Shown here piece after piece: positions 8,084-62,732 of a DNA stretch of 64,000 bases (position 1 is its first letter; the number at the start of each line of letters is the position of its first letter). Position numbers and translations under genes: made by a program. Source of the DNA: Haliotis cracherodii. Its lineage: Eukaryota. The stretch lies in contig NW_027266286.1 of NCBI RefSeq assembly GCF_022045235.1, positions 55,676,001 to 55,740,000 on the forward strand. Direction: 5' to 3'. Below the pieces are notes generated by a model. The model saw nothing but the letters and a program-made list of their open reading frames with translations. It was not told where the DNA came from and ran no database searches.

Positions 8084-8120
<37 letters not shown>

Positions 8121-15030: not shown

Positions 15031-17500
15031 ATGAAAGGTCTGAGCAGCTGTCTGCCCATGTGTCTGTGTCTTGCTGTCTGTCTGCAGATCATCTGCGGGG
15101 AAGATACCCAGCAAGTTGACACACCTCTGTCCCGACAAAAGAGGTTTGACTTTGACTTTGACAAAATATTAAAGGGTTTGAAGACGGCAGGCACCTTCGT
15201 AAAGACGGCCACCAACCTTCTTGGCCAAGGGAATTCAACGTTTGGAAGATTTATTAATAGGCTCCCCTTCTTGGATCTGCCAGATGCCAAAAGCATTTTA
15301 GGCCGATTTGATGACATGATGAAGAAAGAGGCCATGACGCCAGTTCAGATGGACCTCGCCCACCAGTTGATGGACGCCCTTAATCATACAGTCTCGCTGA
15401 AGGAGCAATTCGAGGAAAGTAGCGGTACGTTATTAACGAGAACACTCACTTTCGTTAGAGCGGACAAATAGAACGTCTATAGGGACATTAAAATGCTGCT
15501 GGGGTGTGGTTCTGGTGTATGGGGGAAGTCATTATGCTGAAGTGGACTGATCGCTAGCCCAGTAGGTATAGCTTGTGCCGAAGTGTCCGGTTCGATTCGA
15601 TAGATACATGCCACTTCCAATGTGGTATTGCTGGCATATTGTTTAAGGCCATACTCACTCAAATACAACTTACGTGGGAGGACATATGATCGGCAACCAT
15701 ATCTCAGTTTAACAGCTTCTCGTCTCATGAATGACAACTAGTATTTATTTTTCTCGCACAATTTACTTTCAAGTACAGTTTAAAGTACATTGAATGCGAC
15801 TGTAAGTTTAAGATAAAATAATTGGTACTTGTCTGGTTTGACTTCATGCAAAACTATTTCTAAGTACAAAGCAATTATGATTTACACACCGAATCAGTAG
15901 TTGAAACCCGGATACTCTCAGAGCAACCGTCTCTGATAGTTGAAGTCTAAAAGGCAATAGGTTCAAGTGAGAAAGAAGCGGATGAGCGAACGCTAACCAC
16001 ATGGCCACATCCCCGACTGACACAAAGACGTTTATTGATGTCACAGGTGATCGCGGATGACCAAGTGCAAAGTTGCGCCCCTTAGATATATATGTAGGGA
16101 TGGTATGGTTATAGTCAGAAACGTAGCTGATATTGTATCCTTAAATTGCTCATGTCATCACCCACTAGGTCGACTCATCCTGTCACGAGTACTTACAAGC
16201 TTCCGTGATAGGTGAAAGGTTGCGGCGAAGGCGTGAACTCACTCAGTTGCTGTAAACCAGGAAGAATACCATTTGTATTGATGGGGCGGTGGGGTAGTCT
16301 AGTGGTTAAAGCGTTTGCTCGTCACGCCGAAGACCCGGGTTCGGTTCTCCACATGGGTACAAATTGTGAAGCCCATTTCTGGGCCCACTTGCACAAAGCG
16401 ATCCTAGCGCTAAGAAGGTCGTAACTCCCATACTTTAACATAGGCTTACGATAGTCTTAGCGCTAAGATCGCTTTGTGCAAGTGGGCCCTGGTGTCATCC
16501 GCCGTGATATTGCTGGAATATTGCTAAAAGCGGCGTAAAGCCACACTCACTCACTCACTTCTGTTGATTACAGAACATTGTTCTTGTACCTCAACATCCT
16601 TGTTCTAGACCATGTCGTATTATTCATTTTCCTGTTCTTGTAAATGCAACTGTTCTTGTTCAGCTCCTGCTCCTGTTCTATTTTGTTCTTGTTAATGTTC
16701 ATTATTGACCTCCTGATTCAAGAGCCTGTTTCCCCGCTGTCTTTCTTGTTTACTTTCACACTGTTCTTGGTCTCTTTCCTACTCTTGTTCCTGACCTTGA
16801 TCTTATTGTTCCTGATTCTGGTGTACCTCCTCTCGCTCTTTTCAAAGTCGTAGGCTACATGCTATTTGTATATATGTGTTTATCGTCTTCAGGTCAGAAA
16901 CAATTCGATTTGGTCAGTCTGGTGGCGGGACTAAGGACTGCCGGCACTGTGACAAAGACCATCACCAACGTCCTCGGCTTCAGAAACTCCGCTTTCGGAA
17001 GGTTCATCAACCAGGTGCCTTTCTTGGACGTACCTGATGCCAAGAACGTCCTTGAACATGTGGAGAACATGATGAAGACAGAAAAGATGTCAGAGGTCAA
17101 GATGGACCACGCCCATCAGCTGATGGAGGCTCTGCAATACTCCATCCAGATGAAGGAACAACTAGGAGAGGGCAGTGGTAAGTTCTCTTTCAACCAGGTG
17201 TAACTTAAATATTGTCCAAGAAGGAGTTAAACCCAACTCTCTCCGTCACTCAGGAGTAATTGATTGGCCTAAAGAGATTATCGAACTTTGTTGTCTATAG
17301 GAGCTTTTGGTTAGAAAGTAGACTTGCAGTCAGAGAGTTTAATTACGCAGCAAGCTTAAAATGAATATCTGCTGATGAGTTTACTATTTGTTTTAAATAA
17401 TTCGTGCATGGGTTTGTTTGTTACAGGTTCGTCAACATTGCTGCAGACATCGACCTTGATGATGTTGCCGGTCATGTGTGCAGTGAAATTTACCATATAA
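15031..17500 (+). CDS. Gene A: predicted GPI-anchored, furin-processed two-domain amphipathic-helix protein (250 aa)
   Basis: Acceptor tttcag ends 15020. Coding exons 15031-15424 (G|gtacgt), 16893-17177 (G|gtaagt), 17427-17500 (ttacag|...TAA); both introns phase 1; 753 nt total. Signal MKGLSSCLPMCLCLAVCLQIICG; pro EDTQQVDTPLSRQKR; domain 1 FDFDFDKILKGLKTAG...KEQFEESS; domain 2 GQKQFDLVSLVAGLRTAG...KEQLGEGS; tail GSSTLLQTSTLMMLPVMCAVKFTI*. AATAAA at 17676. Confidence 0.85.
16283..16559 (+). mobile_element. SINE family 1, interrupted by a MITE
   Basis: Head 16283-16381 and tail 16489-16559. Confidence 0.85.
16382..16488. mobile_element. 107-bp MITE, probably PIF/Harbinger type, nested in a SINE in a gene A intron
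   Basis: ~33-bp TIR GGCCCACTTGCACAAAGCGATCYTAGCGCTAAGA. CTG target duplication at 16379-16381 and 16489-16491 restores the SINE sequence catttCTGgtgtc. Confidence 0.8.
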
Positions 17501-18699: not shown

Positions 18700-20290
18700 T
18701 TCCCTTTATTCAGTGCTTGTAGGCCACGGGCCTTTTTGTACAGACGACATACAATTAAGGTGCAAACAAGTATAAGATATAATACCCTCCTTCCTTTTTT
18801 TAAGAAAAGCAGTTTTTACATAATTGCACATTATACATGTTGGAGTATTTCTGTTCTTACATTGGCATAAAATAAGTACTTTGCTGTATTCATATTGATA
18901 ATAGGGTCATGCGATGACAGTAGTGTATTAAACTTCAGAATATTTGGGAAGATGTAAAATTTAGATTTTATGTAACTTTGCCTAAGATGGCTATAAGCTG
19001 GACAAATTAACAAAAAGTGATATTCATTTTCGATATGGTTTAAGTTACAAACTTTACATTTTCTAAATTCACGAGGGGCGGTCGGGTAGCCTAGTGGTCA
19101 AAGCGTTCGCTCGTCACGCCGAAGACCCGGGTTCGATTCCCGACATGGGTACAATGTGTGAAGCCCATTTCTGGTGTCCCCCGCCGTGATATTGCTGGAA
19201 TATTGCTAAAAGCGGCGTAAAACCAAACTCACTCACTCACTCACTCTAAATTCACGAGGAATGTTATAATGTCGTCCACGTTCAATTTCTAAATTGTGAG
19301 AACTAAGCCGAAAACGAGTCAATGTTGTTCTGAATTTATTTTCTGTAATACTACTCAAATAGTTCTCACATAAAATGGATGTTTTAAACTGTGTATAATA
19401 AGCCATTTGGGGGCCTTCAGATAAATCACTATGCCAAACCTGAGAAAAGTTGTCTTTTAAACGTTGACGTAACATATTTAAAAATACGGTTTTATTACCA
19501 CATGCTTGAAAGAACCAGACATCACCAAATCCTAATCTAAAAATAACAAGTTTTAAGTTTCGTTACCCAATTTACTTGGCCTTGTTCATCGTACAAGCGC
19601 AACATATTGTAACAATTTTTGGGTAAGCGAGATTCCTGCATTTAAAAGAGACAGCCAATATTCGACACATTTCAATTCAGCAAGCCACCGGATAGGGTAT
19701 CTACCACACTCGCCTAACAACCCATTATTTGAAGTTGATAACTTTACATTTAAAAGACGCTTACAGGCATACAACTGAACTTTTTCTAGTGGTTCTTTGT
19801 CACTGAACCCTCAAATTTCAGCCCCGTATAAAAGTATTGGTGTTATCTTTGCATCAAATAATTTGAAGTAAAAGTGAGGCGAGTATGGTTTTAAGGAATG
19901 TATACTAATTAAAAGGATCATGAACACCTTTCTTGCCTGAATTGCAATATTACTTAAAGCTTTCGACCATAGTAATCTATTGCTAAAATACAAACCAAGA
20001 TAACTGTATCCAGTAAATACTTCAACCACATTTCCGTCATGATACCATTTTTCATAACGTGATAAACCTCCCCCATTTTTAAAAACAAGTATTTTTGTTT
20101 TCAATAAATTCACTGACATTTCCCATTTACAACAGTAATCATGCAAGATATTTAACTTCATTTGTAAATTGTTGACAGTATTGCCAAACACAATAAGATC
20201 CTCCGCAAATAGAAATAGGAAAATATGAATACATTCCGGATGTAACTGAACACCAAAACGACAATTTTGTTCCATTTCTATAATCAAGCA
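18700..20290 (-). mobile_element. 5'-truncated decayed LINE of the same RTE-X-like clade
   Basis: LFAEDL (degenerate FADD), KTKILVF, PILLYGAEI, LGECGRYP, RFRLSSHNLEIERGRH, ICPAY; 3' AATAAA near 18705. Interrupted by the SINE at 19075. Confidence 0.85.
19075..19245 (+). mobile_element. SINE family 1, inserted in a LINE
   Basis: Intact copy; TSD tctaaattcacgagg at 19062 and 19245. Confidence 0.9.
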
Positions 20291-20645
20291 AATGATGTGC
20301 CTCTAGGTTCGTGTTCATATGAGACAAACGTTATATTAATTGTTTTTCAAACAACAAGGATATGAAATAGTGGACGGGATACTGAGTGTAAGAGCAATGT
20401 GTCCGGAACTGTTAACTTCAATTGTCATCCTGTCCGGAACAGGCCGTCCCAGAGAATCGTGCACGTCATGCACATTCAAACTCTACCGCAGTTTCCCTAG
20501 TTTCACTCGTTCACGTAACTATCACATTACATGGCACACTCCGCGATATCAGTGGTCAATAATTACACGATTATCATCAACTTCAAAAGTCTACATACGA
20601 CCGTACACCGCCAAACGGACCACACACATCGCTTATTTTTATATA

Positions 20646-25300: not shown

Positions 25301-26963
25301 GGAAACTGAAGACTGTAGCACTCATAGCACAGTCTAATGTGAAGATTAGGAAACTGAAGACTGTAGCACTCATAGCACAGTCTAATGTGAAGATTAGGAA
25401 ACTGAAGACTGTAGCACTCATAGCACAGTTTAATGTGAATATTAGGAAACTGAAGACTGTAGCACTCATAGCACAGTCTAATGTGAAGATTAGGAAACTG
25501 AAGACTGTAGCACTCATAGCACAGGCTAATGTGAAGATTAGGAAACTGAAGACTGTAGCACCCATAGCACAGTCTAATGTGAAGATTAGGAAACTGAAGA
25601 CTGTAGCACTCATAGCACAGTCTAATGTGAAGATTAGGAAACTGAAGACTGTAGCACTCATAGCACAGTCTAATGTGAAGATTAGGAAACTGAAGACTGT
25701 AGCACTCATAGCACAGTCTAATGTGAAGATTAGGAGACTAAAGACTGTAGCACTCATAGCACAGTCTAATGTGAAGATTAGGAAACTGAAGACTGTAGCA
25801 CTCATAGCACAGTCTAATGTGAAGATTAGGAGACTAAAGACTGTAGCACTCATAGCACAGTCTAATGTGAAGATTAGGAAACTGAAGACTGTAGCACTCA
25901 TAGCACAGTCTAATGTGAAGATTAGGAGACTAAAGACTGTAGCACTCATAGCACAGTCTAATGTGAAGATTAGGAGACTAAAGACTGTAGCACTCATAGC
26001 ACAGTCTAATGTGAAGATTAGGAGACTAAAGACTGTAGCACTCATAGCACAGCCTAATGTGAAGATTAGGAGACTAAAGACTGTAGCACTCATAGCACAG
26101 TCTAATGTGAAGATTAGGAGACTAAAGACTGTAGCACTCATAGCACAGTCTCATGTGAAGATTAGGAAACTGAAGACTGTAGCACTCATAGCACAGTTTA
26201 ATGTGAAGATTAGGAGACTAAAGACTGTAGCACTCATAGCACAGTCTAATGTGAAGATTAGGAAACTGAAGACTGTAGCACTCATAGCACAGCCTAATGT
26301 GAAGATTAGGAGACTAAAGACTGTAGCACTCATAGCACAGTCTAATGTGAAGATTAGGAGACTAAAGACTGTAGCACTCATAGCACAGTCTAATGTGAAG
26401 ATTAGGAGACTAAAGACTGTAGCACTCATAGCACAGTCTAATGTGAAGATTAGGAAACTGAAGACTGTAGCACTCATAGCACAGTCTAATGTGAAGATTA
26501 GGAAACTGAAGACTGTAGCACTCATAGCACAGTCTAATGTGAAGATTAGGAAACTGAAGACTGTAGCACTCATAGCACAGTCTAATGTGAAGATTAGGAA
26601 ACTGAAGACTGTAGCACTCATAGCACAGTCTAATGTGAAGATTAGGAGACTGAAGACTGTAGCACTCATAGCACAGTCTAATGTGAAGATTAGGAGACTG
26701 AAGACTGTAGCACTCATAGCACAGTCTAATGTGAAGATTAGGAGACTAAAGACTGTAGCACTCATAGCACAGTCTAATGTGAAGATTAGGAAACTGAAGA
26801 CTGTAGCACTCATAGCACAGTCTAATGTGAAGATTAGGAAACTGAAGACTGTAGCACTCATAGCACAGTCTAATGTGAAGATTAGGAGACTGAAGACTGT
26901 AGCACTCATAGCACAGTCTAATGTGAAGATTAGGAGACTAAAGACTGTAGCACTCATAGCACA
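22316..26963. repeat. 48-bp minisatellite (~96 units, 4.6 kb)
   Basis: Unit AAGACTGTAGCACTCATAGCACAGTCTAATGTGAAGATTAGGAAACT(A/G). Confidence 0.97.
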
Positions 26964-27084
26964 ATTATCGATTGATCGAACTATCGATGTATCTCCATTG
27001 TCAACGCTCCGTCAATACATCGATGACAAGTACAAATGTCAATAGTTAAGATCGATGCCGCCCAACACCATCGATACTATCAAT

Positions 27085-30083: not shown

Positions 30084-31608
30084 ATGAAAGGTCAGCTGGT
30101 ATGCCTTTATCTGGCAATATTTCTGCATGTCATCATAGCAGATTCCAGGCAATCTGCAGACAAAGCTCTGTCGCGACCGGAAGGATTTGACTTTCGTGCT
30201 CTACTCCGTGGGTTGAAGTCTGCCGGCTCTCTCGTTAAGGCTATCACCAACATACTAGGATTGAGGGAAACGGATTTTGGTACGTTCATCAACGGTTTAC
30301 CCTTCTTGGATCTTCCTGCCAGCCATCATGCGCTTGCCCACTTTGATGACTTGATGAAGAGAGACAGGAACATGACGGTGATTCAGAAGGCCCGTGTTGA
30401 GAAGCTGATGGCGAAGCTGCAATACAGCATGGAGATGAAGACAGAGCTCGGTACTTGCGATAACGGTAAGGCGCTGTTCTTCCTCCTCCATCTCACAATA
30501 AGTGATGTTCATTTAATGCACACACACACACACACACCCTGGTCATTCCCTTACCTACATAATAGCATATCCAGCAATGGAGTAGTGATATTGGATAAAC
30601 AAAAATTGAAATTGATATTATCTAGCCCTCAGCATGTTGTCTTAATCTTAAATAAAAGCGACAAAATCCTTTCCTCATTCATAAGAAATCTCTGCCAAAA
30701 GCCGATTCCGACTGTATTAAGACCATGTGTTTATAAATAACTACACTTCCCGTGAAGATCAGGGGCAAATAGGTCTTCAGCAACCCATGCTTGCCGTAAA
30801 AGGCGGCTATTCTTGTCGTAAGAGGCGACTAACGGGATCGGGTGGTCAGGCTCGCTGACTTGGTTGATGCATGTCATCGATCCCAATGCCTGGATCGATG
30901 CTCCTGTTGTCAATCACTTGATTGTCTGGTCCAGACTCGATTACTTACAGACCGCCGTCATAGAGCTGTAATATTGCTGAGTGCGGCGTTAAACAATAAA
31001 CAAACAAACAAATAACTAACTAAACAAATGGTGATGACAGATGTTCGGGAAAAGGTGAGCGTATCCTGCCCCACCGGTGGCAGCAACCACAAACCCAAAG
31101 ACTAAATGTAAATATCAAGCTCTCAAGAAAAGAGAGAAACATATTTGCAGTAATAGTGTACAATACTTTAAAATAACCTAGGCGCTATACATTTTATAAT
31201 GTGAAATCTCTACATGTTTAATGGGCAGGTGCCCTCTTTACGAAACAAACTGATACATTGAAATTACTAAACTTGATCCTGATCGAACCTTGATCGATGT
31301 GTCCGACCCTGAGATCCTAATATTTACATGATAAATAGAAATTAACTGTGCGTTTTTAATATCAAGCAATATTACTATAAAAGTCATAAAGGCTATATTA
31401 TCATATGAATTGTTATAGTTCCGTTTTTGTTATTTCCTGGAGTTCCGTGTCTAGGTGTATGGGAATAATGCTTAAAGCGGAGTAAAATCATCCCAAACAG
31501 CCACACTTACTGATAATGTTTTGTCATTGGGTTTCAGGGGCCACGGCGTCAACGCTGCCGATGACTAGTCTGATGTTGCCGGTCATCTATGCAGTGGTCT
31601 CCATCTAG
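30084..31608 (+). CDS. Gene B: single-domain paralog of A, predicted GPI-anchored (150 aa)
   Basis: Acceptor tttcag ends 30073. Exons 30084-30465 (G|gtaagg) and 31538-31608 (tttcag|...TAG), phase 1. MKGQLVCLYLAIFLHVIIA-DSRQSADKALSRPEG-FDFRALLRGLKSAG...KTELGTCDN-GATASTLPMTSLMLPVIYAVVSI*. Last exon is clearly homologous to A's (LMLPV). AATAAA at 31747. Confidence 0.85.
30749..31012 (+). mobile_element. SINE-like family 2, in gene B intron
   Basis: Full copy; flanking direct repeat aaataacta. Confidence 0.85.
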
Positions 31609-37409: not shown

Positions 37410-38504
37410 ATGCAGTCCTCCATCGCCCTCCTGTGCCTCGTTGTCCTGGTGTGCGTGCACTCCACCGTGACCGACACCCTGGACACCCAGGACACCCACC
37501 TGTCACGTCATAGACGTGTGAGATCTGTGGGGGACATCGTAGACGGACTGACCACCAACTTCAATAAATATCTGTCATCTGTTTTCGACGTGGACGAGGA
37601 CGACTTCAAGGACATCCTGAAGGCGCTGGGGAAACTGAAGTTGGCGGTACTGAAGGCACTCCTGAATAAATTCTTTGACTTGAAGGACAAACACCACGAT
37701 TTTGGAAGCGCAGAAAATTTCCAGAGAGTTTCCCAAATGATGGAATCCTTGGAGGCAGACATTCAACAGCAGGAAGTAACCAGCGGTGTCACCCAAGACA
37801 CCCAACTGCCCCGCCCTGTGGATGACATCGTGGACGGACTGACCACCAAGTTCAGTAAATATCTGTCATCTGTTTTCGACGTGGACGAGGACGACTTCAA
37901 GGACATCCTGAAGGCGCTGGGGAAACTCAAGTTGGCAGTTCTGAAGGCACTCCTGAATAAATTCTTTGACTTGAAGGACAAGCACCACGATTTTGGAAGC
38001 GCAGAAAATTTCCAGAGAGTTTCCCAGATGATGGAATCCTTGGAGGCAGATATTCAACAGAAGGAGGCAAGCAGCGGTAAGTGTTTTGTACTGTAGTGCG
38101 GCAGTTTTACCGTTATATATTGATTAATTGAATAAATTGAAAAATATTAATTGGATAATACAGACACCAAATATACAATAAAAGCAATGAGCGTTTTGAA
38201 TGTCAACGTCGGTTGAGACAGCTTATTTACAGCAAATATGCATCAATATATCAAATTAATTAACAATCGTTGTAGCCAGTTACCACTATTATTAGGAGAA
38301 TTCACCATAAGATTAACCTGTTTTTTATAATATAAACATTCATGGTAGAAAATATGTTTAACTATGCACATTGTCATCAGATTAACATTATTGACTTGAT
38401 ATATGATGTGTTTTTGTCTTATTTCAGGGGCGCCTACACCTTACGTTACCATGACGTCATTGACAATTCCACTGCTGCCAGTGATAGCTAAAGTTTTAAA
38501 CTGA
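37410..38504 (+). CDS. Gene C: predicted GPI-anchored protein with an internally duplicated helical domain (247 aa)
   Basis: Acceptor ttcag ends 37405. Exons 37410-38076 (G|gtaagt) and 38428-38504 (tttcag|...TGA), phase 1. Signal MQSSIALLCLVVLVCVHS; pro ...DTHLSRHRRVR; two near-identical domains 291 nt apart; tail SSGAPTPYVTMTSLTIPLLPVIAKVLN*. AATAAA at 38545. Confidence 0.87.
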
Positions 38505-45767: not shown

Positions 45768-47133
45768 ATGCAGTCCTCCATCGCCCTCCTGTGCCTCGTT
45801 GTCCTGGTGTGCGTGCACTCCACCGTGACCGACACCCTGGACACTCAGGACACCCACCTGTCACGTCATAGAGGGGTGAGATCTGTGGGGGACATCGTAG
45901 ACGGACTGACCACCAAGTTCAATAAATATCTGTCATCTGTTTTCGACGTGGACGAGGACGACTTCAAGGACATCCTGAAGGCGCTGGGGAAACTGAAGTT
46001 GGCGGTACTGAAGGCACTCCTGAATAAATTCTTTGACTTGAAGGACAAGCACCACGATTTTGGAAGCGCAGACAATTTCCAGAGAGTTTCCCAGATGATG
46101 GAATCCTTGGAGGCAGACATTCAACAGCAGGAAGTAACCAGCGGTGTCACTCAGGCCACCAAACTGTCACGCCCTGTGGATGGCATCGTGGACGGACTGA
46201 CCACCAAGTTCAGTAAATATCTGTCATCTGTTTTCGACGTGGACGAGGACGACTTCAAGGACATCCTGAAGGCGCTGGGGAAACTGAAGTTGGCGGTACT
46301 GAAGGCACTCCTGAATAAATTCTTTGACTTGAAGGACAAACACCACGATTTTGGAAGTGCAGAAAATTTCCAGCGAGTGTCCCAGATGATGGAAAAGTTG
46401 GAGGCAGATATTCAACAGCAGGAGTCATCCAGCGGTGAGTATTTTGTAGTTCAGTCTAGAAGTATTACCGCTATTAATCGATTCCAAAAAATAGCGATTG
46501 GATAATACAGATACAAACATATTACGAAACCATTTCTATAATTGTTTGCATGTCAAAGTTGTTTGAGACAGCCTATTTCTATACCAGATGACATTAACGG
46601 ATGTTTGTAAGCAAATATGCATCAATATATCAAATTAATAAATAATCGTAGCAAGTAACCACTTATATTAGAAGCCTATAAGATTAACATGAGGTGTTTT
46701 ATGACATGAGTGAGTGAGTGAGTTAATGCTTTACGTCATCACATCGGCAATATTTCAGCCATATCGTGACGAGTTATGACATGAAGATGCATGGTAGAAA
46801 ATAAGCTTTAACTATGCATATTGGTAACAGTATTAACTTGTTCTTTTGTTTGGTTGTTGTGTTTCTTGGTTTGTTGTTGAACGCCGCAATATTCCAGCTG
46901 TATGACGGCGTCTGTAAATAATCGCGCCTGAACCAGACAATCCAGTGATTGACAAGATGAGCATCGATCCACGTCAATCATGGGTTGCTGTTGACCTGAT
47001 TCTTCAAGAGTACACTAATTTGGAATGATATGTGATGTGTTTTTGTCTTATTTCAGGGGCGCCTACACCTTACGTTACCATGACGTCATTGACAATTCCA
47101 CTGCTGCCAGTGATAGCTAAAGTTTTAAACTGA
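45768..47133 (+). CDS. Gene D: close duplicate of gene C (247 aa)
   Basis: Exons 45768-46434 (G|gtgagt) and 47057-47133. About 10 aa differences from C; last coding exon identical to C. AATAAA at 47174. Confidence 0.87.
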
Positions 47134-48368: not shown

Positions 48369-49289
48369 CCCCTCCAAACAAGGGTAGACAGAATGTCGAA
48401 GGGAGCATATCGTCAATGCGATATATTTGCCTCACCAAAATAAGAACTAAATCTTTATAATGCTTTAACAGAAATATTCAGTTTCCGACATAGAATTATA
48501 AACGTTCTTTGGTTATAATACGATACAGGTGCCATACATATAGGTGTTATGAATTTAGAACACGGTTATTGTGTGAGACACGAAATGGCAGACATCAGCC
48601 CCATTGTTGAGTAACAGAGCTACAAAGTTCATATACTGACAGGAAATCTAAAATATCCGTGTGCGACAAACCGTTTTGGTTATATAATTTCCTTATCTAT
48701 CAGGTGCAGGTATGTAATTAAATTGTCGAACTGACCTTTGTCATGTCGGTTTGACCATGTGCGTGGCCGCGTGACGTGACGTACCTTTTGACACACACTG
48801 ACCTGTGGAGATGAAGGTCAATCACTGTATTTCCTTTACTGCATTTACTGCCTCACTAACTCAAGGTTTGACTCTAATAAACATCAGTAGTATCAGGAAT
48901 ATAAAAATGCAATGTTCACAAACACAGCGTTCATATTCATTTCCCAAAACGCACCTCTGTGCTGCATTGAAAGGGTCCTGATAAAAAGCTCGATTTGTCC
49001 TAAACATCAATGCCAATCACAGCAACAGAAGAATATATATTACGTGAACTACAGATTATAACTGTTTAAAAGTATTACTGTTAAAAAGTATTTAAAGAAT
49101 AAAATAATGGAAACAATGAATATGCAATTTAAACTGCCGGGCAAACGAAGTATAGACGTTTAACGTGGATTTGACCAAAAAAAACTTACAAACGTTATCA
49201 AAACGTTCCTAGACTGAAAACAGTCTTCGAAACACTGCAAGTGGAAACGAGTAATGTTTCCTGGCAGTTTATATTGTTTAACATAGTTC

Positions 49290-51845
49290 CTCACACACAC
49301 GCATGCACAATTACTGTGTCATGTACACCTCCTTACACACGCGCATGCACAATTACTGTGACATGTACACCTTCTCACACACGCGCATGCACAATTACTG
49401 TGACATGTACACCTTCTCACACAAACGCATTCACAATTACTGTGACATGTACACCTCCTTACACACGCGCATGCACAATTACTGTGACATGTACACCTCC
49501 TTACACACGCGCATGCACAATTACTGTGTCATGTACACCTTCCTACATACACGCATGCACAATTACAGTGACATGTACACCTCCTAACATACACGCATGC
49601 ACAATTACTGTGACATGTACACCTCCTTACACACGCGCATGCACAATTACTGTGTCATGTACACCTTCCTAAATACACGCATGCACAATTACTGTGTCAT
49701 GTACACCTTCTCACACACACGCATGCACAATTACTGTGACACGTACACCTCCTTACACACGCGCATGCACAATTACTGTGACATGTACACCTCCTTACAC
49801 ACGCGCATGCACAATTACTGTGACATGTACACCTCCTTACACACACGCATGCACAATTACTGTGTCATGTACACCTTCCTACATACACGCATGCACAATT
49901 ACTGTGACATGTACACCTCCTTACATGCACGCATGCACAACTACTGTGACACGTACACCTCCTTACACACGCACATGCACAATTACTGTGACATGTACAC
50001 CTCCTTACACACGCGCATGCACAATTACTGTGACATGTACACCTCCTTACACACGCGCATGCACAATTACTGTGATATGTACACCTTCCTACATACCTGC
50101 ATGCACAATTACTGTGTCATGTACACCTTCCTACATACACGCATGCACAATTACTGTGTCATGTACACCTTCCTACATACACACATGCACAATTACTGTG
50201 ATATGTACACCTTCCTACATACCTGCATGCACAATTACTGTGTCATGTACACCTTCCTACATACACACATGCACAATTACTGTGTCATGTACACCTCCTT
50301 ACATACACACATGCACAATTACTGTGATATGTACACCTTCCTACATACACGCATGCACAATTACTGTGTCATGTACACCTTCCTACATACACACATGCAC
50401 AATTACTGTGATATGTACACCTTCCTACATACACGCATGCACAATAACTGTGTCATGTACACCTCCTTACATACCTGCATGCACAATTACTGTGTCATGT
50501 ACACCTTCTCACATACACGCATGCACAATTACTGTGACACGTACACCTCCTTACACACGCGCATGCACAATTACTGTGTCATGTACACCTTCCTACATAC
50601 ACGCATTCACAGTTACTGTGACATGTTCACCTCCTTACACACGCGCATGCACAATTACTGTGACATGTACACCTTCCTACATACACGCATTCACAGATCC
50701 TGTGACATGTACACCTCCTTACACACGCGCATGCACAATTACTGTGTCATGTACACCTTCCTACATACACGCATGCACAATTACTGTGACACGTACACCT
50801 CCTTACACACGCGCATGCACACTTACTGTGTCCTGTACACCTTCCTTCATACACGCATGCACAATTACTGTGACACGTACACCTCCTTACACACGCGCAT
50901 GCACAATTACTGTGTCATGTACACCTTCCTACATACACGCATTCACAGTTACTGTGACATGTACACCTCCTTACACACGCGCATGCACAATTACTGTGAC
51001 ATGTACACCTTCTTACATACACGCATTCACAGTTACTGTGACATGTACACCTCCTTACACACGCACATGCACACTTGCTGTGACATGTACACCTTCCTAG
51101 ACACGCGCATGCACAATTACTGTGACATGTACACCTCCTTACACACGCGCATGCACAATTACTGTGATATGTAAACCTCCTTACACACGCGCATGCACAC
51201 TTGCTGTGACATGTACACCTCCTTACACACGCACATGCACAATTACTGTGACATGTACACCTTCTCACACACACGCATGCACAATTACTGTGTCATGTAC
51301 ACCTTCTCACACACACGCATGCACAATTACTGTGACATTTACACCTCCTTACACACGCACATGCACAATTACTGTGACATGTACACCTCCTTACACACGC
51401 ACATGCACAATTACTGTGATATGTACACCTCCTTACACACGCGCATGCACAATAACTGTGACATGTACACCTCCTTACACACGCACATGCACAATTACTG
51501 TGACATGTACACCTCCTTACACACGCACATGCACAATTACTGTGACATGAACACCTCCTTACACACGCACATGCACAATTACTGTGACATGTACACCTTC
51601 CTACATACACACATACACAATAACTGTGATATGTACACCTCCTTAAATACACGCATTCACAATAACTGTGTCATGTACACCTTCCTACATACACGCATGC
51701 ACAATTACTGTGTCATGTACACCTTCCTACATACACGCATGCACAATTACTGTGTCAGGTACACCTTCCTACATACACGCATGCACAATTACTGTGTCAG
51801 GTACACCTTCCTACATACACGCATGCACACTTGCTGTGACATGTA
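49290..51845. repeat. 42-bp minisatellite (~60 units)
   Basis: Unit CACACGCGCATGCACAATTACTGTGACATGTACACCTCCTTA and variants. Confidence 0.95.
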
Positions 51846-52851
51846 CTATCATCACTACCTGTTGGTGATGACATTGTGATTAAATGTTGCGTTAAAATGC
51901 AACACCACAGTATTGTAGATATACACCTCAACGGCAATTACATCCAAACCATTAGTTGCCTGGTGAAGTATATATTCAAGAAATAAATGACGAGTGGTTC
52001 CTTCTCCAGGCAGTGTTTTGTTGAACGATAAACAACAGTCGTTTATTTTTTATAAGAAATAATGAGGGGGCGAAGCCTGTATGGTGATCAAATGTACAAA
52101 CTATATATTCAATTATTTACCCTAATTTTAATAATGATATCTCCCTGAATAGAATCCGACCTCTGAAATTCGGACAAGTTTATTTTACGAACAGGTGGGT
52201 TAAATTTGGTATTTCCTTATCATTCTCACAATCCTCACGTCGACTATCTGAATCTTTTCTTTAAAAAAACGATTGTCGGCCACTGCGTTTATTCAAATCT
52301 CCAGAGATGACGTCATGAAAGAATAATGTTTTATCTTGAAATAAACCACTTATATATGAACATAGCTATTACTAAACAATCACACTGTGTATAAGATCCA
52401 GCTGATATTGGCCGATTGCGGTCATTACCCTTGAACCATCTCATGACATCCTGTCCCCATTCTGGTCCTCCCACTATAGCCAGTTCACAAGTAGACTACC
52501 ACCAGCCACTTAGCGTTACAGATACTGAAGATATATTAAGGCAGTCCAGCATTCTATATGTAGCAATAACGCAGATAAAACGTATGAATATTTCGTATGT
52601 TGCGAAGTAGTTACATTAAACACATAATTAATAGTTACAATATGTAGTCATCGATAACAGTAGAGTTACTCGTTTCTGGATGTTAAGTTGGTGTAAAAAG
52701 TACTGCTAACAGTTTCAGTAGCAGAACCATTAGTGATTCTGGCGTCATGTGATTCTGACGTCATGTGATTCTGACGTCATGGTAAGCAATGACGTCTGCA
52801 ATGCATTGTGATGCAATTTCATTGCAGCGATATCTGCAATGTAGATATCGC

Positions 52852-55192: not shown

Positions 55193-56024
55193 ATGCGGTC
55201 TTCCATTATCCTTCTGTGGCTCGTTGTACTGGTCTGTGTGAACACCCAGGACATCCAAGACAGCCAGGACACCCAAAACAGCAAACTGTCACGTTCTAGG
55301 CGGTCTGTGAAGGAGATTGTGGAGGGTCTGAAGACTGGATTTAGCAGACATCTGTCTTCCGTTTTCACTCTGGCAAAGGATAAGTTTAAGGAAGTCCTCT
55401 CCGCTCTGGGAAAACTTAAGCTAGCTGTAGCCAAAGGGATCCTGAAAAAGTTCATTGGCTTGAAAGACAAGCAGCATGATTTCGGAGATGCAGAAAGTGC
55501 CCAGAGAGTGGCCCAAATGATGGAGGTTCTGGAGGATGATATCGAACGACAGGAGAATGGTAAGAGTACTTCAGAAATAAACAAATTAATTTTCGTTCGT
55601 TCGTGCGTCCGTTTGTTCGTTCGCTCTTTATTCATTCATTCATTCATTCATTCATTCATTCATTCATATATTTATTTATCAACTTACTTATTTTGCTTGT
55701 AGACCACTGATTGATAAATCAGTTATTCGAAAGCCATTAAACATCAAACTTTCGGCTCAAGATCTTTTGACATTAATCAGTAGTAATGACATTAATCAAT
55801 GGCATGGATCAATTACACTAAGCAAGGCAAAATATACTGATATATATTACATCGTATAAACATGCGGTATCCCTGAAATATGATTACTTTGAAAAGACCC
55901 GCTACCATACATTGTGAAGTTATAATTGATGAATACATGTTCTGTTTCAGGAGCGTCAGCATCATACGTCACCGTGACGTCCTTGGCGATTCCTCTTCTA
56001 GCAATGGTGACGCTGAGGTTCTAA
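55193..56024 (+). CDS. Gene E: single-domain paralog of C/D, predicted GPI-anchored (146 aa)
   Basis: Acceptor cttcag ends 55188. Exons 55193-55559 (G|gtaaga) and 55951-56024 (tttcag|...TAA). MRSSIILLWLVVLVCVNT-QDIQDSQDTQNSKLSRSRR-SVKEIVEGLKTG...DIERQEN-GASASYVTVTSLAIPLLAMVTLRF*. Candidate AATAAA at 56500. Confidence 0.87.
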
Positions 56025-56965: not shown

Positions 56966-58279
56966 CAGAAGCAATTTAAAGCACATCTGGACGTGCGTAA
57001 TTATACAGCATGATTGAACACATTTAACTGTGTCTTTGGAATATTTTTAGAAGCAAGACATATGCAAAATCAAAAAATATTTTTAAGGGATTCTTTGACG
57101 AAGAACTTGAAATCATACGCGCATTCTGATTGGTTTGTAGTATTTTCGCACATCACATTCATCGATAGGGGGACGAGTCTTGCAGGTTACGGAAAGGGGC
57201 GAGTGGTGACGAATGTAAGGCCACCTAGCCGAAACTACTTTCAAGCTCCAAACATCAAATAAATCAAGCGACAAAATCCTTTCGATATCCAATAGAAATC
57301 TCTGCATTAAGCCGAGTCTAATGCACGATTCCGACTATATCATGAGCACGTGTTTATGAATCACTATAAAATAGTAATGATACCAGGTGCTCGCTAAAAG
57401 GTGAGCGTATCCTGATCACAAACACATGCAAAGACAAGTCAAAATAGGGAATTACAACGGACAACATTTTTGTAACTGATGCGTCACATTTGGAAATGTC
57501 CTCCACCTGTCTACCATAAAAAAGATTGAAAGCTCTACTGAGGTCTTGAGCGTTGCAACCTTGAGACCGATGCCTTCTTTATATTGACAAACGTTCCTAA
57601 TATGATGAGACAAATATTGTAAATGTCAAATATAAGGAATGACAAATAGGCTTGCACAATACATTTTTTATTCTTTATATATGATATTTACCATAAGGAA
57701 AGACACTCAGCAAACAATCTGTATTTATCTTTCAATTTATCCGAAATCCAACAAGATAAAACACGTTTTGTCAAGTAATATTTATTATTTTTTTACAACA
57801 ACAAAAAGTAATGACTAAATTTGCAGTTGCAATGGCTCAATATGTTAAGCCTGTTTTGGTGTCCTCTGTCGGGATATTACAGAAACTGGGATCCCTTTGT
57901 TGAATGGTACTATCAGTATTATCACATTGGCATGGGTATAGCTTATCTTTGAGTGTAGGGAATGAAATGCACTTTCAATGGATCCTGACACAATCAAGGG
58001 ACGTAACTCTGTACGTTGTGGGTGTGTGGGTGGTTTTGTATGTGTTGGTGTGGGTGGTTGTCAGTCTGTCTGGTACATCGCTCTGCTTACTTCCCTCCAT
58101 ATAATTTAAATAAATAAATTACAATAAATAACGTGTAAATCGCTGCAAAACATGTAAATCACTACAAATAACTTATATTTACAGATGATATAAATATGTT
58201 GCTGCTATGTACAAAGGTGTGCCTTGTAAGTATATACGACTGAAGTGTTGTGTCGGTCATATTTCCTCCACATAGACTC

Positions 58280-59334
58280 TTAGAATCCCATCTGGAGAGC
58301 CAACACCACGTGCAGGGCACTGGTGCCAATAAACAGAACAACTGCAGACACGCCTGTGATTTCCTTCGCACCTGCGAACACAAAAGGAAAAATATTTTAT
58401 GTCATAAATATATTAATACTGTGTACCAAATATCTGAAGAAAATAGGGGACGAGGTGCAGTGTTGTGTCACTTAGCATGATCTAATTTTCCGGGTTCGAA
58501 TCCCAGACACGACACAACCATGCAACTCCTGTAATAGCCAGTTCACAAGTAGAATACCACAAGCATCATCGTATTACAGATAATGAAACTATATTTAAGG
58601 CAGTTCATCATTATATATGTACTACTTAATTATTCGTGTAAGAAACCGTTCGCACAAACAATACATTTCTTCCCACCTATTTTGGTTAATACAATTCTAT
58701 TGATTTCTCGGTGTAGCATCTGTTTTGGTCCCATGCTATCAGATTCGACTTTTTTCACGTTTAACATCTTTTCAGGGAGTCATCGATACTTAAAATTGCC
58801 CCTACTCCCTTGACCTTAAAGACGAAAGATTACAAAGGCATCAACTACTAAGACCAAACACCAATGGTCCTTACTAAGATGAATTGAATACACACCTGAT
58901 GCCAGCAACAACAGCTGGTATTCTTGAAACTTTCTTTCCAACTGGGCCTCAGTCATACAATTCGGAGTATTTGACGAACCCTGAAAGATACTGCGGAAGA
59001 ATTCCCCTATGATGGGTACTGCTGCAGCAAATATAGCAGCTCTCTTTTGCCTCCCGCCATCACGTCCTTGCGTCTTCTCCATCATCAAGTTGGAACCTTG
59101 TCTACCTCCCTCTGGGTTCTCTGTCCATCTTGTAGACTTCATCGCGGACCGGATGTCAGAGCTGTGGTGCTCATACACATGCGCAGCATCAGCATCCGGA
59201 AAAGATGAGTGGTTAAATGAGATTTCGGTCTTCACTTGATCCTGTGTCTCATTTCGCTGACCGATTGCTATCATTGCCCGCACCGATTGTGTCGACAGAA
59301 CAGTAAGTGCGAGGACTATTGCCACCATTGCCAT
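58280..59334 (-). CDS. Gene F: secreted precursor with RQKR site, hydrophobic/amphipathic mature N-terminus and GPI-like tail (176 aa)
   Basis: Minus strand. Acceptor ttacag, exon starts 59337, ATG 59334. Exons 59334-58896 (TCAG|gtgtgt) and 58371-58280 (tcgcag|...TAA), phase 1. MAMVAIVLALTVLSTQSVRA-(long pro)-GGRQKR-AAIFAAAVPIIGEFFRSIFQGSSNTPNCMTEAQLERKFQEYQLLLLAS-GAKEITGVSAVVLFIGTSALHVVLALQMGF*. Candidate minus-strand AATAAA at 57786-57781. Confidence 0.8.
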
Positions 59335-59685
59335 TGTCTGTAACAATAAAACATGGAACATTAGCATATTATATTTTAATTTTTAACGCCACAGTCAGCT
59401 AGGTTCCAGCCACATCACACAGGCCTATAAATAGTCTAGTTTTCAGCAGACAAAGATTGATATTGTGTGCCGTCAGGGTACAATGTCATACGATCAACCA
59501 GGGTTAGAAACTAACAGTTTTTGTCCACTAGTCCTTATGATGATAACATTTAGCAAAACTTTTAAAATGGGCCAGTTTCTACTAGTCCTTATGATACCTT
59601 TACTATTGAGCAGTTTCGTTAGGACTACAGAACCATTTAATCGCATCTAACGTCAAGCATACGTTACTAGGGGTCTATTCCAACT

Positions 59686-59836
59686 CGGCGCGGTGGGATA
59701 GTCCAGTGGTTAAAGCGTTCGCTCGTCGCGTTCGATTCCCCACATGGGTGCAATGTTTAAAGCCTATTTCTGGTGTCTCCCGCCTTGATGTTGCTGGACT
59801 ATTGCTAAAAGCGGTGTAAGACCATACTCATTCACT
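59686..59836 (+). mobile_element. SINE family 1
   Basis: Diverged copy. Confidence 0.75.
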
Positions 59837-60269
59837 ATTCTCAATTGGGATTACGAAAAAGGATAAATAAAATAGAAAAATGAAAAAGTAACCTTCTGAT
59901 ACAGACCGAGTGGTAATCATCTTTAATTTATGATATACTCAAAGAAAACGTTAGTGATGATATACATTTATTGATAACTAAAGGTAATTATTATAATGAT
60001 GATATAGATTATATATTTTTTACAGACTGACGTATGACCTAAATGATTGTGCTCATGATAAACCACTTCTTAAGCGTGATGTTGATCCGTATTAATGTGA
60101 AAAACAAAGACACACCTCCATGTTGTATTTCCTTTCGAATTACTGTACATTTAAACGAAAACCAGGACTTTAACCGAAACGAAGAACAAAAGATAATCTT
60201 TAGAAAGCTTATTGTATCCACCTTTGTCCCAATTAAAACACAGGAACATGTTATTCACACAATAGTGGT

Positions 60270-60537
60270 AGTGATTTGGGTTTAACGCCGCTTTTAACAG
60301 TATTACAGTTATATCATGGCGTCTCAGCTTAATGTGGGAGGAAATCCCGAAGTGATGCAGGTCTCAGACGTTTACCACTTCGGTGAAACCCACGAGCACG
60401 GGTATGGTGCTGACAAACCTAGAAACATAATCGGGTCGAACCGGGATTCGAACCCACAATCATAGGTTTCTGGCGTGCCCAAGGGACGCAACTCAGCACA
60501 GGGAATCGCCTTAGACGACTGGGCCACCCGTGCCCCC
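60270..60537 (-). mobile_element. SINE family 4
   Basis: TSD tattcacacaata. Confidence 0.85.
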
Positions 60538-60606
60538 TATTCACACAATAAAAAAAGTAGGATGTTTGTGATGAAGATTTGAATAAGAGCATGACCATAA
60601 ATATAC

Positions 60607-60754
60607 GTATTTCTCCAGTGCATTTGTTTGTTGTATTCTGAACATTAACTCTACGTGTCTGTGTGTCATTAAGGTTGCTGCGTTTCTTTTTATAGAGCCA
60701 TGACGTAACCAGCTGGTTAAAGGGCTTGCTTGCTGGTCACGTCGCTTCCCGGAA
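60607..60754 (-). promoter_or_regulatory. Candidate proximal promoter of gene F
   Basis: Minus-strand TATAAAAA at 60694-60687, TGACGTAA at 60701, perfect STAT/GAS motif TTCCCGGAA at 60746-60754. Only a weak donor (AC|gtatat) at 60607. Confidence 0.35.
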
Positions 60755-60952
60755 ATATCAAATCCACGTAATCAGTGATCAACTGGTGTACACTGTTTGT
60801 CACAGAAACAATTTATGTCCTAAATGTATCAGTTACACAATGGCGGAGAGGAAAGGTGTGTCTTCGTGTACGGGTAGTCGTGTTGGCGGTAGTATCTGTT
60901 TCCTTGTTAACACAATCAACTTGTTCTCAATGAGTAGTCACGTCTTTTAGTC

Positions 60953-61204
60953 TTGTTTAACGCCGCACTCAGCAATATTCCACCTATGTGACGTCGGTCT
61001 GTAAATGAATCGAGTATGGCCAGACAATCCAGTGATTAATATCATGAGCATCGATCCATCCAATTGGGATCGATGACATGCATCAACCAAGTCAGTGAGC
61101 CTGACCACCCGATCCTATTAGTCGCCTTTTACGACAAGCATAGTCACCTTTTACGGCAAGCATGGGTTGCTGAAGACCTATTCTACCCCGGAATCGTCAC
61201 GGGT
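60953..61204 (-). mobile_element. SINE-like family 2
   Basis: Full reverse copy. Confidence 0.85.
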
Positions 61205-61945
61205 AAGTATACACGGAGAAAGTATATATATATACGTCAACAATGGTACATGAATTAATACGTACCCTATATCATAGTATTCTAATGTTTGCAAAACTTT
61301 GTCTCATTTTATAACTATGACATAGATATTTACATAAATTTCTTAACATTTCATCGTTTGAAGACAGACGCCTTTACGCTAAGATTTATACATTTTCGGA
61401 TTATGACAATACAGTTTAGGCAGATAGAGGTGGTTTATGTTCTTTATAGGAATTACATATTTAAGTAAAAGTATATCTTCTATCCCTAGATTACAAAGAG
61501 CACATAAACGTAAACTTAAATCTCCAACTATCTCCCTTCGTTAACTTTCAACCCGTTCTGTCGTATCACCATATTACGTCGCTTTCTAATAGTTTCTATC
61601 TATTAAAATGGGTGTGTTACTTCTCAGGTTCGATTAAGCTGTTAAACTCTTTATATATGTTATATCTTGAACTGTTTTCTGTAATAATATTCCATGATTG
61701 ATGACACATATCAGTTGCAACCTTTTTCTACAGTCTAAGAAAAGTAAATATATCTCCAACACACTAAGCAATCCATACAAATACAAATCTATGTGAAAAC
61801 AATAAAGTGCGTACAGGAGTTGCATGGGTTTGGTGTCCACAATTATCATAGTACATAAGCATATCACAGGCTTTCTTAGGAATCCTATCATTGTGCATTT
61901 CGGTACGTTAAAGCCAGTATTTTATACGACGACATGATTCATTTG

Positions 61946-62120
61946 CAGTAAACTACGGTTATAACGAACATGCTTATAACGAACTAACGGATATAACGAA
62001 CTAACTTTTTAGTCCCGACTATATGCTGTAGTTATGTTGTATATATGCTTATAACGAATTACGGTTATAACGAACTAAAATTAGTAGTCCCTTTGAGTTC
62101 GTAATAACCGTAGTTTACTG
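61946..62120. mobile_element. Tc1/pogo(Tigger)-type MITE
   Basis: TIR CAGTAAACTACGGTTATAACGAAC / GTTCGTAATAACCGTAGTTTACTG, internal TATAACGAA repeats, TA on the right flank. Confidence 0.75.
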
Positions 62121-62732
62121 TATATATAAAGGAAATCGGCCACATTCATCATATACAATAACACTTGGTGCTTTGGGACCAACGCTGAGACATTTCTTGC
62201 AAGCAAGCAAATTGACTGTTTCAATCTTTTCAAATATGATGCCAAGGTTTGATTGAGGTATATATGTTTAGCAACAACGAGAATTATTCAGATATGTTTT
62301 ATTTGTATAAGAACGGGAGAGTTGCGTCCCTTTTGCGTGGCAGGATCCGAGGTTTCTCACCTCAGATTCGCCCTGATTATGATCCTTGGTTGGTCAGCAC
62401 CATCCCCGTGATACAATATCGCGAAGTGTGTGTCATTTGCTAATTAATAAGGTGCTTTATAAACGACTGTCATTTGATAACATAATGTATCGGTCAAAAA
62501 AAATATAGATGTAGAGGACTTAAGAAAACAACGGACGTATTTGTTACGACTAGTCGACTTAAATGAGGATTGGGTGGATGCAGTGTGTGACCTGGCAGAT
62601 TGTATGTCACCATACACAGGCGGCGTGGATCGTTGCTCTTGCTGTCAACCACTCCTGTGTCTGCATGGCCAGACTGGATTAGTATATAGATGACATGATA
62701 CAGACGCGATATTGCTGACTGTGTCGTTAAAC

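What the first reader, a model, noticed from the sequence alone, without database searches (positions are those of the whole stretch)
58280..59334. Gene F: furin cleavage would unmask a fusion-peptide/AMP-like N-terminus on a ~50-aa anchored stub
After a long polar propeptide with two N-glycosylation sequons (NET, NHS), RQKR is followed directly by AAIFAAAVPIIGEFFRSIFQG, a linker with one Cys, a helix (TEAQLERKFQEYQLLLLAS) and a GPI-like signal. Established: a furin site followed by an Ala/Gly/Phe-rich hydrophobic stretch, a helix and an anchor is the logic of class I viral fusion proteins, and PIIG.FF..IF resembles short amphipathic cytolytic peptides. Inference: a minimal host-encoded membrane-inserting or fusogenic protein. 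It shares the architecture but no obvious domain homology with A-E and is transcribed convergently to them.
Basis: partly seen in the sequence, partly recalled or inferred. Interest (0 to 1): 0.75.

Follow-up and report, generated by a model that had tools for sequence, protein, structure and literature searches.

The report
Furin-unmasked, lipid-anchored abalone surface tether
A two-exon abalone gene, conserved in three species, encodes a small protein predicted to be lipid-anchored on the cell surface and cut by furin to expose a sticky end, which likely tethers a facing membrane rather than fusing cells.

Summary
The gene is real. It lies on the minus strand in two coding exons (59334-58896, 58371-58280), is identical to Haliotis cracherodii XP_071115445.1 (176 aa), has orthologs in H. 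rufescens (92%) and H. rubra (59%), and relatives' contigs skip the intron. The anatomy is confirmed: signal peptide, polar pro region, RxKR, a 48-residue mature part, GPI-type tail. The mature part is better conserved than the pro region (36/48 v 36/70 in H. rubra, p=0.013), but the constrained core is residues 110-140 (28/31), not the supposed fusion peptide (99-109: 5/11); the two sequons are not conserved. A real amphipathic helix is present (2 of 5000 shuffles match it). Class I fusion is not supported: one short helix, no heptad hairpin, no transmembrane anchor with tail, no cysteine tying the pro region. The peptide is uncharged, unlike cationic antimicrobial peptides. No relative was found outside Haliotis. 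F shares exon layout but no detectable domain homology with five neighbouring genes, whose 86-residue five-helix domain is itself uncharacterised. Best reading: a furin-activated, GPI-anchored, likely disulfide-linked tether that docks on a facing membrane. A minimal fusogen stays possible (about 0.1).

The parts
59338..59339 (-). AG acceptor 3 bases before the ATG: likely end of a 5'-UTR intron; the upstream exon was not located
   Evidence: pyrimidine tract + CAG; relatives' contigs stop at 59337-59340, one with 52 unlaid letters beyond (records 17, 25)
59275..59334 (-). Signal peptide, residues 1-20, predicted cut after V-x-A
   Evidence: V18 and A20 invariant
59053..59274 (-). Polar pro region, residues 21-94, no Cys, net charge 0, two non-conserved sequons
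   Evidence: 64/74 identical in H. rufescens, 36/74 in H. rubra
59041..59052 (-). Furin-type site RQKR, residues 95-98 (RPKR in H. rubra)
59008..59040 (-). Apolar N-terminal arm, residues 99-109; conserved in character, not in letters
   Evidence: mean hydrophobicity 0.88, moment 0.21; 5/11 identical in H. rubra
58978..59019 (-). Amphipathic helix, about residues 106-119, net charge 0
   Evidence: moment 0.73, 2 of 5000 shuffles reach it (H. rubra 0.72, 7 of 5000)
58954..58977 (-). Conserved loop with the only mature Cys (Cys126, 58959-58957)
   Evidence: 8/9 identical over 120-128 in all three other proteins; Cys invariant
58897..58953 (-). Anchor-proximal helix, residues 128-146, with a short L-F-Y-L hydrophobic stripe (about two heptads)
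   Evidence: H129-145, low confidence; 11/12 over 129-140 in H. rubra
58372..58895 (-). Phase-1 GT-AG intron, 524 bases, splitting the Gly147 codon
   Evidence: table 8
58280..58371 (-). Exon 2: predicted GPI attachment site (small residues 146-148), spacer and hydrophobic tail to the stop
   Evidence: no charged residue in the last 20, no cytosolic tail; an Arg inside the tail of H. rubra
57672..58279 (-). Likely 3' UTR; AATAAA at 57786 and 57672
   Evidence: relatives' contigs follow the window down to 58088
55193..56024 (+). Nearest convergent neighbour: one-domain member of the five-helix GPI family
45768..47133 (+). Neighbour with two five-helix domains
37410..38504 (+). Neighbour with two five-helix domains, 96% like the one at 45768 over exon 1
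30084..31608 (+). One-domain neighbour without an R-x-x-R site
15031..17500 (+). Three-exon, two-domain neighbour (250 aa, RQKR site)

Best explanation
F encodes a 176-residue abalone precursor that is predicted to be GPI-anchored and cut by furin, leaving a 48-residue surface protein that likely works as a tether: its unmasked hydrophobic arm and amphipathic helix would dock on a facing lipid surface while its own end stays lipid-anchored. Steps: (1) shown: gene, splicing in relatives, conserved RxKR, Cys and tail; (2) predicted from motifs: signal removal after residue 20, GPI transfer near Ser146, furin cut after Arg98, with the Cys-free polar pro region released; (3) inferred: the pro region masks the apolar arm in transit; (4) inferred: Cys126 and the short hydrophobic stripe of the last helix join two chains into a disulfide-linked dimer stalk; (5) inferred: helix 106-119 lies in the outer leaflet of an apposed cell, vesicle or microbe and the apolar arm dips into it. 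With no long heptad hairpin and no membrane-spanning anchor it would hold membranes together, or bend them, but not open a fusion pore on its own.
For: Spliced frame equals a RefSeq protein and contigs of relatives skip the intron. RxKR sits directly before an apolar stretch in 4 of 4 proteins. Mature part more conserved than pro (36/48 v 36/70, p=0.013, H. rubra). Amphipathic moment 0.73, reached by 2 of 5000 shuffles; at mean hydrophobicity 0.27-0.35 this falls in the surface-seeking range of the Eisenberg plot (recalled criterion). Residues 99-109 are apolar on all faces (0.88, moment 0.21), hard to bury in a two-helix, 48-residue chain (inference). One invariant Cys just before a conserved L-F-Y-L stripe. 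Tail has small residues at 146-148, a spacer, no charged residue in the last 20 and no cytosolic tail; H. rubra tolerates an Arg in it, which fits a discarded GPI signal better than a stable transmembrane helix (inference). Two-anchor tethering by a GPI-ended dimer has a precedent in tetherin (PMC3715405, abstract).
Against: No functional, tissue or proteomic evidence was found. Amphipathic helices of similar strength (0.48-0.62) in the neighbouring genes pack into a confident globular bundle, so F's helix may be buried in protein, not lipid. Near-invariance of the loop and last helix (28/31 over 110-140) suggests a specific fold or partner more than non-specific lipid binding. The summed interface hydrophobicity of the first 21 residues is only about -0.8 kcal/mol, and +0.75 in H. 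rubra (scale recalled), so binding per chain would be weak. The AlphaFold model is unreliable (mean pLDDT 39). Only three species inform the alignment; cleavage and GPI addition were judged by motif, with no dedicated predictor.
Confidence: 0.4

Rival explanations
1. F is a furin-activated GPI-anchored ligand or adhesion receptor: the two helices fold as a hairpin (dimer through Cys126) and bind a protein or glycan partner; the hydrophobic residues are buried in protein and the membrane is never entered. It may be a remote, shortened offshoot of the neighbouring five-helix family.
For: Core 110-140 is 30/31 and 28/31 identical, including the loop. Neighbours have the same layout and fold into soluble bundles. 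All six genes have a splice acceptor within 10 bases before the ATG, and 7 of 7 coding donors examined are phase 1 within a Gly codon before the next exon. Furin-cut GPI adhesion proteins such as mesothelin and T-cadherin are known (recalled; one search gave no paper on this).
Against: No sequence homology to the neighbours' domain: profile-profile E 0.12-0.44, while the two neighbour subfamilies match each other at E 2e-6; HMM scores matched by 105-202 of 1000 shuffles. The all-round apolar arm is not explained by a hairpin.
Confidence: 0.3
2. F is a surface-stored antimicrobial or cytolytic peptide: furin unmasks the hydrophobic N-terminus, and the peptide acts in place or after release by a phospholipase or by a second cut at the internal RK (134-135).
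For: Signal, pro region, RxKR and hydrophobic N-terminus are the layout of mollusc big defensins (PMC3182236, passages). Amphipathic helix. R134-K135 is invariant in 4 of 4 proteins. Likeness to temporin-type peptides is recalled, not tested.
Against: Net charge 0 (first 21 residues) and -1 or -2 (mature part); one Cys instead of six; no basic pair after Gly119 for release and amidation; a single slow-changing gene rather than a variable family.
Confidence: 0.12
3. F is a minimal host fusogen or hemifusogen: the unmasked arm inserts into a neighbouring cell and the short stalk brings the bilayers close enough to merge, alone or with a partner as Myomerger does.
For: Cleavage site directly before an apolar peptide. 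Small fusogens with 20-40 residue ectodomains and amphipathic helices exist (FAST proteins, Myomerger; PMC7830690, passages). GPI-anchored HA still drives hemifusion (PMC2120621, abstract).
Against: One 19-residue helix with about two heptads and no second heptad region; no Cys to hold a receptor-binding subunit; FAST proteins and Myomerger have a transmembrane domain (PMC7830690, passages) and GPI-HA fails at pore opening (PMC2120621). The putative fusion peptide is the least conserved part of the mature chain before the anchor region (5/11). Abalone gamete proteins lysin and sp18 are under positive selection (PMC9022041, passages), whereas F's core hardly changes.
Confidence: 0.1
4. The released pro region (residues 21-94), or an uncleaved precursor, is the working product, for example a mucus or matrix component, and the anchored stub is only a carrier.
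For: The pro region has conserved blocks of its own (residues 31-36 and 50-59), and against H. rufescens it is not significantly more variable than the mature part (p=0.40).
Against: The stub's core is far more constrained than the pro region in H. rubra (28/31 v 36/74); indels fall mostly in the pro region.
Confidence: 0.08

Closest known systems
Class I viral fusion proteins (influenza HA2, retroviral TM, syncytins)
   Same: Furin-type cut directly before a hydrophobic N-terminus; helix before the anchor.
   Different: 48-residue ectodomain, one short helix, no HR1/HR2 hairpin, GPI-type signal instead of a transmembrane helix with tail, no retained subunit, no sequence match (features recalled; GPI-HA result from PMC2120621 abstract).
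Small fusogens: reovirus FAST proteins, Myomerger
   Same: Very short ectodomain with an amphipathic helix close to the membrane.
   Different: Those have a transmembrane domain, FAST proteins also a cytosolic endodomain (PMC7830690, passages); neither is described there as furin-activated or GPI-anchored.
Tetherin (BST-2)
   Same: Membrane-seeking element at one end, GPI anchor at the other, dimer with a helical stalk (PMC3715405, abstract; disulfide links recalled).
   Different: Tetherin's N-terminal anchor is a true transmembrane helix with a cytosolic tail and its coiled coil is long; F's N-end is extracellular, made by furin, and amphipathic. No homology found.
Mollusc big defensins
   Same: Signal, propeptide, RxKR, hydrophobic N-terminal region (PMC3182236, passages).
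   Different: No six-Cys defensin domain, not cationic, GPI-type tail.
Furin-processed GPI-anchored adhesion proteins (mesothelin, T-cadherin; recalled)
   Same: Pro region removed by furin, mature part left on a GPI anchor.
   Different: F's mature part is only 48 residues and matches no Pfam family or solved structure.
The five neighbouring Haliotis GPI genes (uncharacterised)
   Same: Exon layout, signal-pro-mature-GPI order, same contigs in H. rufescens and H. rubra records as far as contig length and locus numbers show.
   Different: They carry 1-3 copies of an 86-residue five-helix domain that F does not detectably share.

Membership tests
Class I viral fusion proteins | Cleavage site directly before a hydrophobic fusion peptide | tested here: met
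   RxKR then an apolar stretch in 4 of 4 proteins; cleavage itself is predicted
Class I viral fusion proteins | Long heptad repeat after the fusion peptide and a second one before the anchor (trimer of hairpins) | tested here: not met
   Only one 19-residue helix next to the anchor, 4 hydrophobic residues at 5-6 a/d positions
Class I viral fusion proteins | Transmembrane anchor with cytosolic tail | tested here: not met
   Hydrophobic stretch runs to the C-terminus, no tail, GPI-type layout; judged by motif
Class I viral fusion proteins | Receptor-binding subunit kept on the complex | tested here: not met
   Pro region is 74 polar residues without Cys; non-covalent retention is not excluded
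Class I viral fusion proteins | Homotrimer | not testable with these tools
   Needs cross-linking or light scattering of the processed protein
Class I viral fusion proteins | Sequence or fold relation to viral envelope proteins | tested here: inconclusive
   No match; F's model is too poor for a fold search
Small fusogens (FAST, Myomerger) | Short ectodomain with amphipathic helix | tested here: met
Small fusogens (FAST, Myomerger) | Transmembrane domain (and, in FAST, a cytosolic endodomain) | tested here: not met
   feature from PMC7830690 passages
Small fusogens (FAST, Myomerger) | Necessary and sufficient for fusion, present at the site (criteria in PMC6504885) | not testable with these tools
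   Needs cell and liposome assays
Cationic alpha-helical antimicrobial peptides (temporin, piscidin type; recalled) | Amphipathic helix | tested here: met
   moment 0.73, 2 of 5000 shuffles
Cationic alpha-helical antimicrobial peptides (temporin, piscidin type; recalled) | Net positive charge | tested here: not met
   0 for the first 21 residues, -1 or -2 for the mature part
Cationic alpha-helical antimicrobial peptides (temporin, piscidin type; recalled) | Released as a free peptide by a downstream basic site | tested here: inconclusive
   No basic pair after Gly119; an invariant RK at 134-135 could serve
Big defensins | Propeptide, RxKR, hydrophobic N-terminal region | tested here: met
   PMC3182236 passages
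Big defensins | Cationic C-terminal domain with six Cys | tested here: not met
   One Cys, GPI-type tail
Tetherin (BST-2) | N-terminal transmembrane helix with cytosolic tail | tested here: not met
   Cleavable signal peptide; segment 99-119 holds Pro107, Glu111, Arg114
Tetherin (BST-2) | C-terminal GPI anchor | tested here: inconclusive
   Motif fits; no predictor or experiment
Tetherin (BST-2) | Disulfide-linked coiled-coil dimer | not testable with these tools
   One invariant Cys and a two-heptad stripe are suggestive only
Neighbouring Haliotis five-helix GPI family | Exon layout: acceptor just before ATG, phase-1 intron before the GPI-signal exon | tested here: met
   6 of 6 genes, 7 of 7 donors
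Neighbouring Haliotis five-helix GPI family | The 86-residue five-helix domain | tested here: not met
   E 0.12-0.44; 105-202 of 1000 shuffles score as well; F's mature part is 48 residues
Abalone acrosomal proteins (lysin, sp18) | Homology to lysin/sp18 and rapid divergence | tested here: not met
   No PDB sequence match at E 10; core 30/31 and 28/31 identical; no formal dN/dS test was run

The most novel reading that the evidence does not exclude
F is a host-encoded, furin-switched, GPI-anchored mini-fusogen: the 48-residue stub inserts its unmasked N-terminus into a facing bilayer and drives hemifusion or, with a partner, full fusion. It would be the smallest protease-activated, lipid-anchored membrane-merging protein known, arisen in abalone without a viral ancestor.
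Probability: 0.1. Interest if true: 0.85.

Novelty: new variant of a known kind. Interest (0 to 1): 0.38.

Why it matters
If the tether reading holds, abalone have built a protease-switched, two-ended membrane clip from an orphan 48-residue chain, a compact parallel to tetherin that could trap microbes or vesicles or hold epithelia and mucus. If it merges membranes it would bear on how few parts a fusogen needs and on whether a lipid anchor can be enough. The protein is small enough to synthesise, so the question is directly testable. The cluster beside it is an undescribed abalone family of GPI-type proteins with a confidently predicted five-helix domain. As it stands F is an annotated but uncharacterised lineage-specific surface protein with no functional data.

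Tried and rejected
Homologs outside Haliotis: none. HMMER profile of 4 sequences against 1.84 billion representatives gave 1 hit, P0003 itself; word-index search gave 3 of 95 candidates, all Haliotis; Pfam 0 families for F, whole or in parts; PDB sequences 0 at E 10; ESM Atlas no usable hit, twice; viral and metagenome contig scans none, first with pro-region patterns, then with mature-region patterns. No H. asinina ortholog came up, although its neighbours did; not resolved. These blanks show neither absence nor novelty.

Structure: AlphaFold of F had mean pLDDT 39, so no fold search was run with it. The three-copy complex job of residues 99-147 returned 'no answer' (score 0.02, mark 0.32, alignment not used, controls not folded); it is no evidence either way. 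The neighbours' domain model (pLDDT 92) found no Foldseek match at E 0.001 in PDB or BFVD and best Z 8.4, rmsd 2.4, 83 aligned, to dynein, within the range common for helical bundles. The 76 Pfam families listed for the neighbours are mutually unrelated and strongest in the repeat-bearing members; rejected as artefacts.

A by-eye alignment of F's two helices with the last two helices of the neighbours' domain was tested and failed; DNA of F matches the rest of the window only through an intron repeat.

Expression: no RNA holder listed on record as RNA (21 of 24 rows hold small shares, 7 studies); 4 runs were laid; tissue is unknown. No whole genome is held.

Literature: six locus numbers 0 papers; six peptide motifs 0 papers; 0 hits in the one supplement of PMC9022041 and in 24 of 27 supplementary files of the H. 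laevigata shell proteome PMC6003135 (files 25-27 not searched); keyword searches gave nothing on this gene. bioRxiv supplements and subscription journals were not visible, so a mention in an expression table cannot be excluded. Earlier findings of this scan: none in 3 look-ups. The identity figure for the 55193 gene rests on an exon boundary off by one base and is not used.

Full report
1. Observation. The minus-strand frame starts at 59334 and reads 146 codons to a GT donor at 58895; a second exon at 58371-58280 adds the tail and stop. The spliced 531-base frame equals P0003, which is RefSeq XP_071115445.1, an uncharacterised 176-residue protein of Haliotis cracherodii. Orthologs are H. rufescens XP_046346577.2 (92%) and two H. 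rubra proteins (59%, 58%). Four coded runs of relatives were laid on 57000-62600; in two of them a single contig covers 58895 upward and continues at 58370 downward, exactly across the 524-base intron (table 8, records 2 and 25); the other two cover the exons in separate pieces. The runs are guessed, not recorded, to be RNA, and their tissue is not given.

2. Anatomy and conservation. Residues 1-20 are a predicted signal peptide, 21-94 a polar pro region without Cys, 95-98 RxKR, 99-146 the mature part, 147-176 a GPI-type signal (small residues at 146-148, spacer, no charge in the last 20 residues, no cytosolic tail). Identity to H. rubra by region: signal 10/20, pro 36/74, residues 99-109 5/11, 110-119 9/10, 120-128 8/9, 129-140 11/12, 141-147 3/7, tail 16/29. 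Mature against pro, gaps left out: 36/48 v 36/70, p=0.013; against H. rufescens 45/49 v 64/74, p=0.40. The sequons are not conserved (1 of 2 in H. rufescens, 0 of 2 in H. rubra). The 14 differences listed for the coding part (of a table that left 368 rows unshown) touch 13 codons, 5 silent; the three changes in the mature part are conservative and match residues seen in the other species. Helix 106-119 is truly amphipathic: moment 0.73, reached by 2 of 5000 shuffles of the first 21 residues (H. rubra 0.72, 7 of 5000). Net charge is 0 for those 21 residues and -1 or -2 for the mature part. The last helix has a conserved L132-F136-Y139-L143 stripe, about two heptads, just after the only Cys.

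3. Relatives. A profile search of 1.84 billion cluster representatives, of any length, returned only F itself; Pfam, PDB sequences, the ESM Atlas and viral and metagenome contigs gave nothing. With three species in the profile, remote relatives could be missed.

4. Surroundings. Five + strand genes precede F: 15031-17500 (two domains in separate exons), 30084-31608, 37410-38504, 45768-47133 and 55193-56024. All are built from one domain of about 86-92 residues: the two subfamilies match at E 2e-6, and the domain folds confidently into five helices (pLDDT 92, pTM 0.81) without a clear structural relative. A profile search gave 12 proteins of 8000 candidates scored, 10 named as Haliotis and 2 unnamed, with 1-3 domain copies. 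F shares their layout: an acceptor within 10 bases before the ATG in 6 of 6 genes, and phase-1 donors in a Gly codon in 7 of 7 cases. It does not share their domain: E 0.12-0.44 by profile comparison, 105-202 of 1000 shuffles scoring as well. A common origin with replacement or extreme shortening of the mature part is plausible but not shown.

5. Mechanism. Shown: gene, splicing in relatives, conservation pattern, amphipathicity, charge. Predicted from motifs: secretion, GPI addition, furin cut with loss of the pro region. Inferred: a disulfide-linked dimer whose last helices form a short stalk on two lipid anchors and whose unmasked arm and amphipathic helix dock on a facing bilayer, giving a switchable tether (0.40). 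The main rival is a folded hairpin that binds a protein or glycan partner (0.30): the neighbours show that helices of moment 0.48-0.62 at this locus pack into protein cores, the loop is nearly invariant, and the computed interface energy of the N-terminal 21 residues is weak (-0.8 and +0.75 kcal/mol, scale recalled). An antimicrobial role (0.12) fits the big-defensin-like precursor layout (PMC3182236, passages read) and an invariant internal RK, but not the charge. A fusogen (0.10) lacks the class I parts (recalled features: two heptad regions, transmembrane anchor, retained subunit); GPI-anchored HA stops at hemifusion (PMC2120621, abstract read); FAST proteins and Myomerger have transmembrane domains (PMC7830690, passages read); abalone gamete proteins are under positive selection (PMC9022041, passages read) while F's core is nearly fixed. 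The pro region as product: 0.08.

6. Comparison and novelty. F works like a furin-activated GPI surface protein, a known kind (mesothelin, T-cadherin; recalled), and in its two-ended design recalls tetherin (PMC3715405, abstract read), but it fails defining features of class I fusion proteins, FAST/Myomerger, cationic helical antimicrobial peptides, big defensins and tetherin. Fusogen status needs the functional criteria in PMC6504885 (passages read), which could not be tested. No paper on this gene or cluster was found; unseen supplements may list it. Verdict: new variant of a known kind; interest 0.38; novel case (lipid-anchored mini-fusogen) probability 0.10, interest 0.85 if true.

Noticed in passing
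window 15031-56024 (+), five genes: An undescribed Haliotis family of predicted GPI proteins built from 1-3 copies of an 86-92 residue five-helix domain (pLDDT 92) with no clear fold match; copy number differs between species. It may deserve its own follow-up more than F does.
   Followed up: partly
window 15031-17500: The two similar ORFs at 15031 and 16893 are exons of one 250-residue, two-domain gene (XP_071113724.1), joined by phase-1 introns; the H. rubra and H. asinina forms have three domains.
   Followed up: yes
window 37410-38504 and 45768-47133: Recent duplicates, 96% identical over exon 1, each with an internal domain duplication inside one exon; the second has Gly for one Arg near the cleavage site. 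The gene at 30084 has no R-x-x-R site.
   Followed up: partly
window 58874 (-): A second, in-frame phase-1 donor-like GT lies 21 bases inside F's intron and would add seven residues before the anchor site; the contigs shown break at 58895, not there.
   Followed up: partly
window 58534-58621 and 52476-52562: F's intron shares an 88-base, 83% identical stretch with an intergenic site; relatives' contigs also lie there, so likely a dispersed repeat.
   Followed up: no
window 59600-59850, 60270-60540, 60950-61200: Short interspersed repeats upstream of F with very high summed contig depth in all four laid runs; likely SINEs.
   Followed up: no
window about 1700-2650, 22400-27050, 49200-51900: Long tandem arrays that keep open frames on both strands; likely minisatellites, not genes.
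   Followed up: no
window about 6200-9850 and 18800-20300 (-): Broken ORFs that look by eye like endonuclease and reverse transcriptase pieces of non-LTR retroelements (resemblance recalled, not searched). A 144-base N gap lies at 18156-18299.
   Followed up: no
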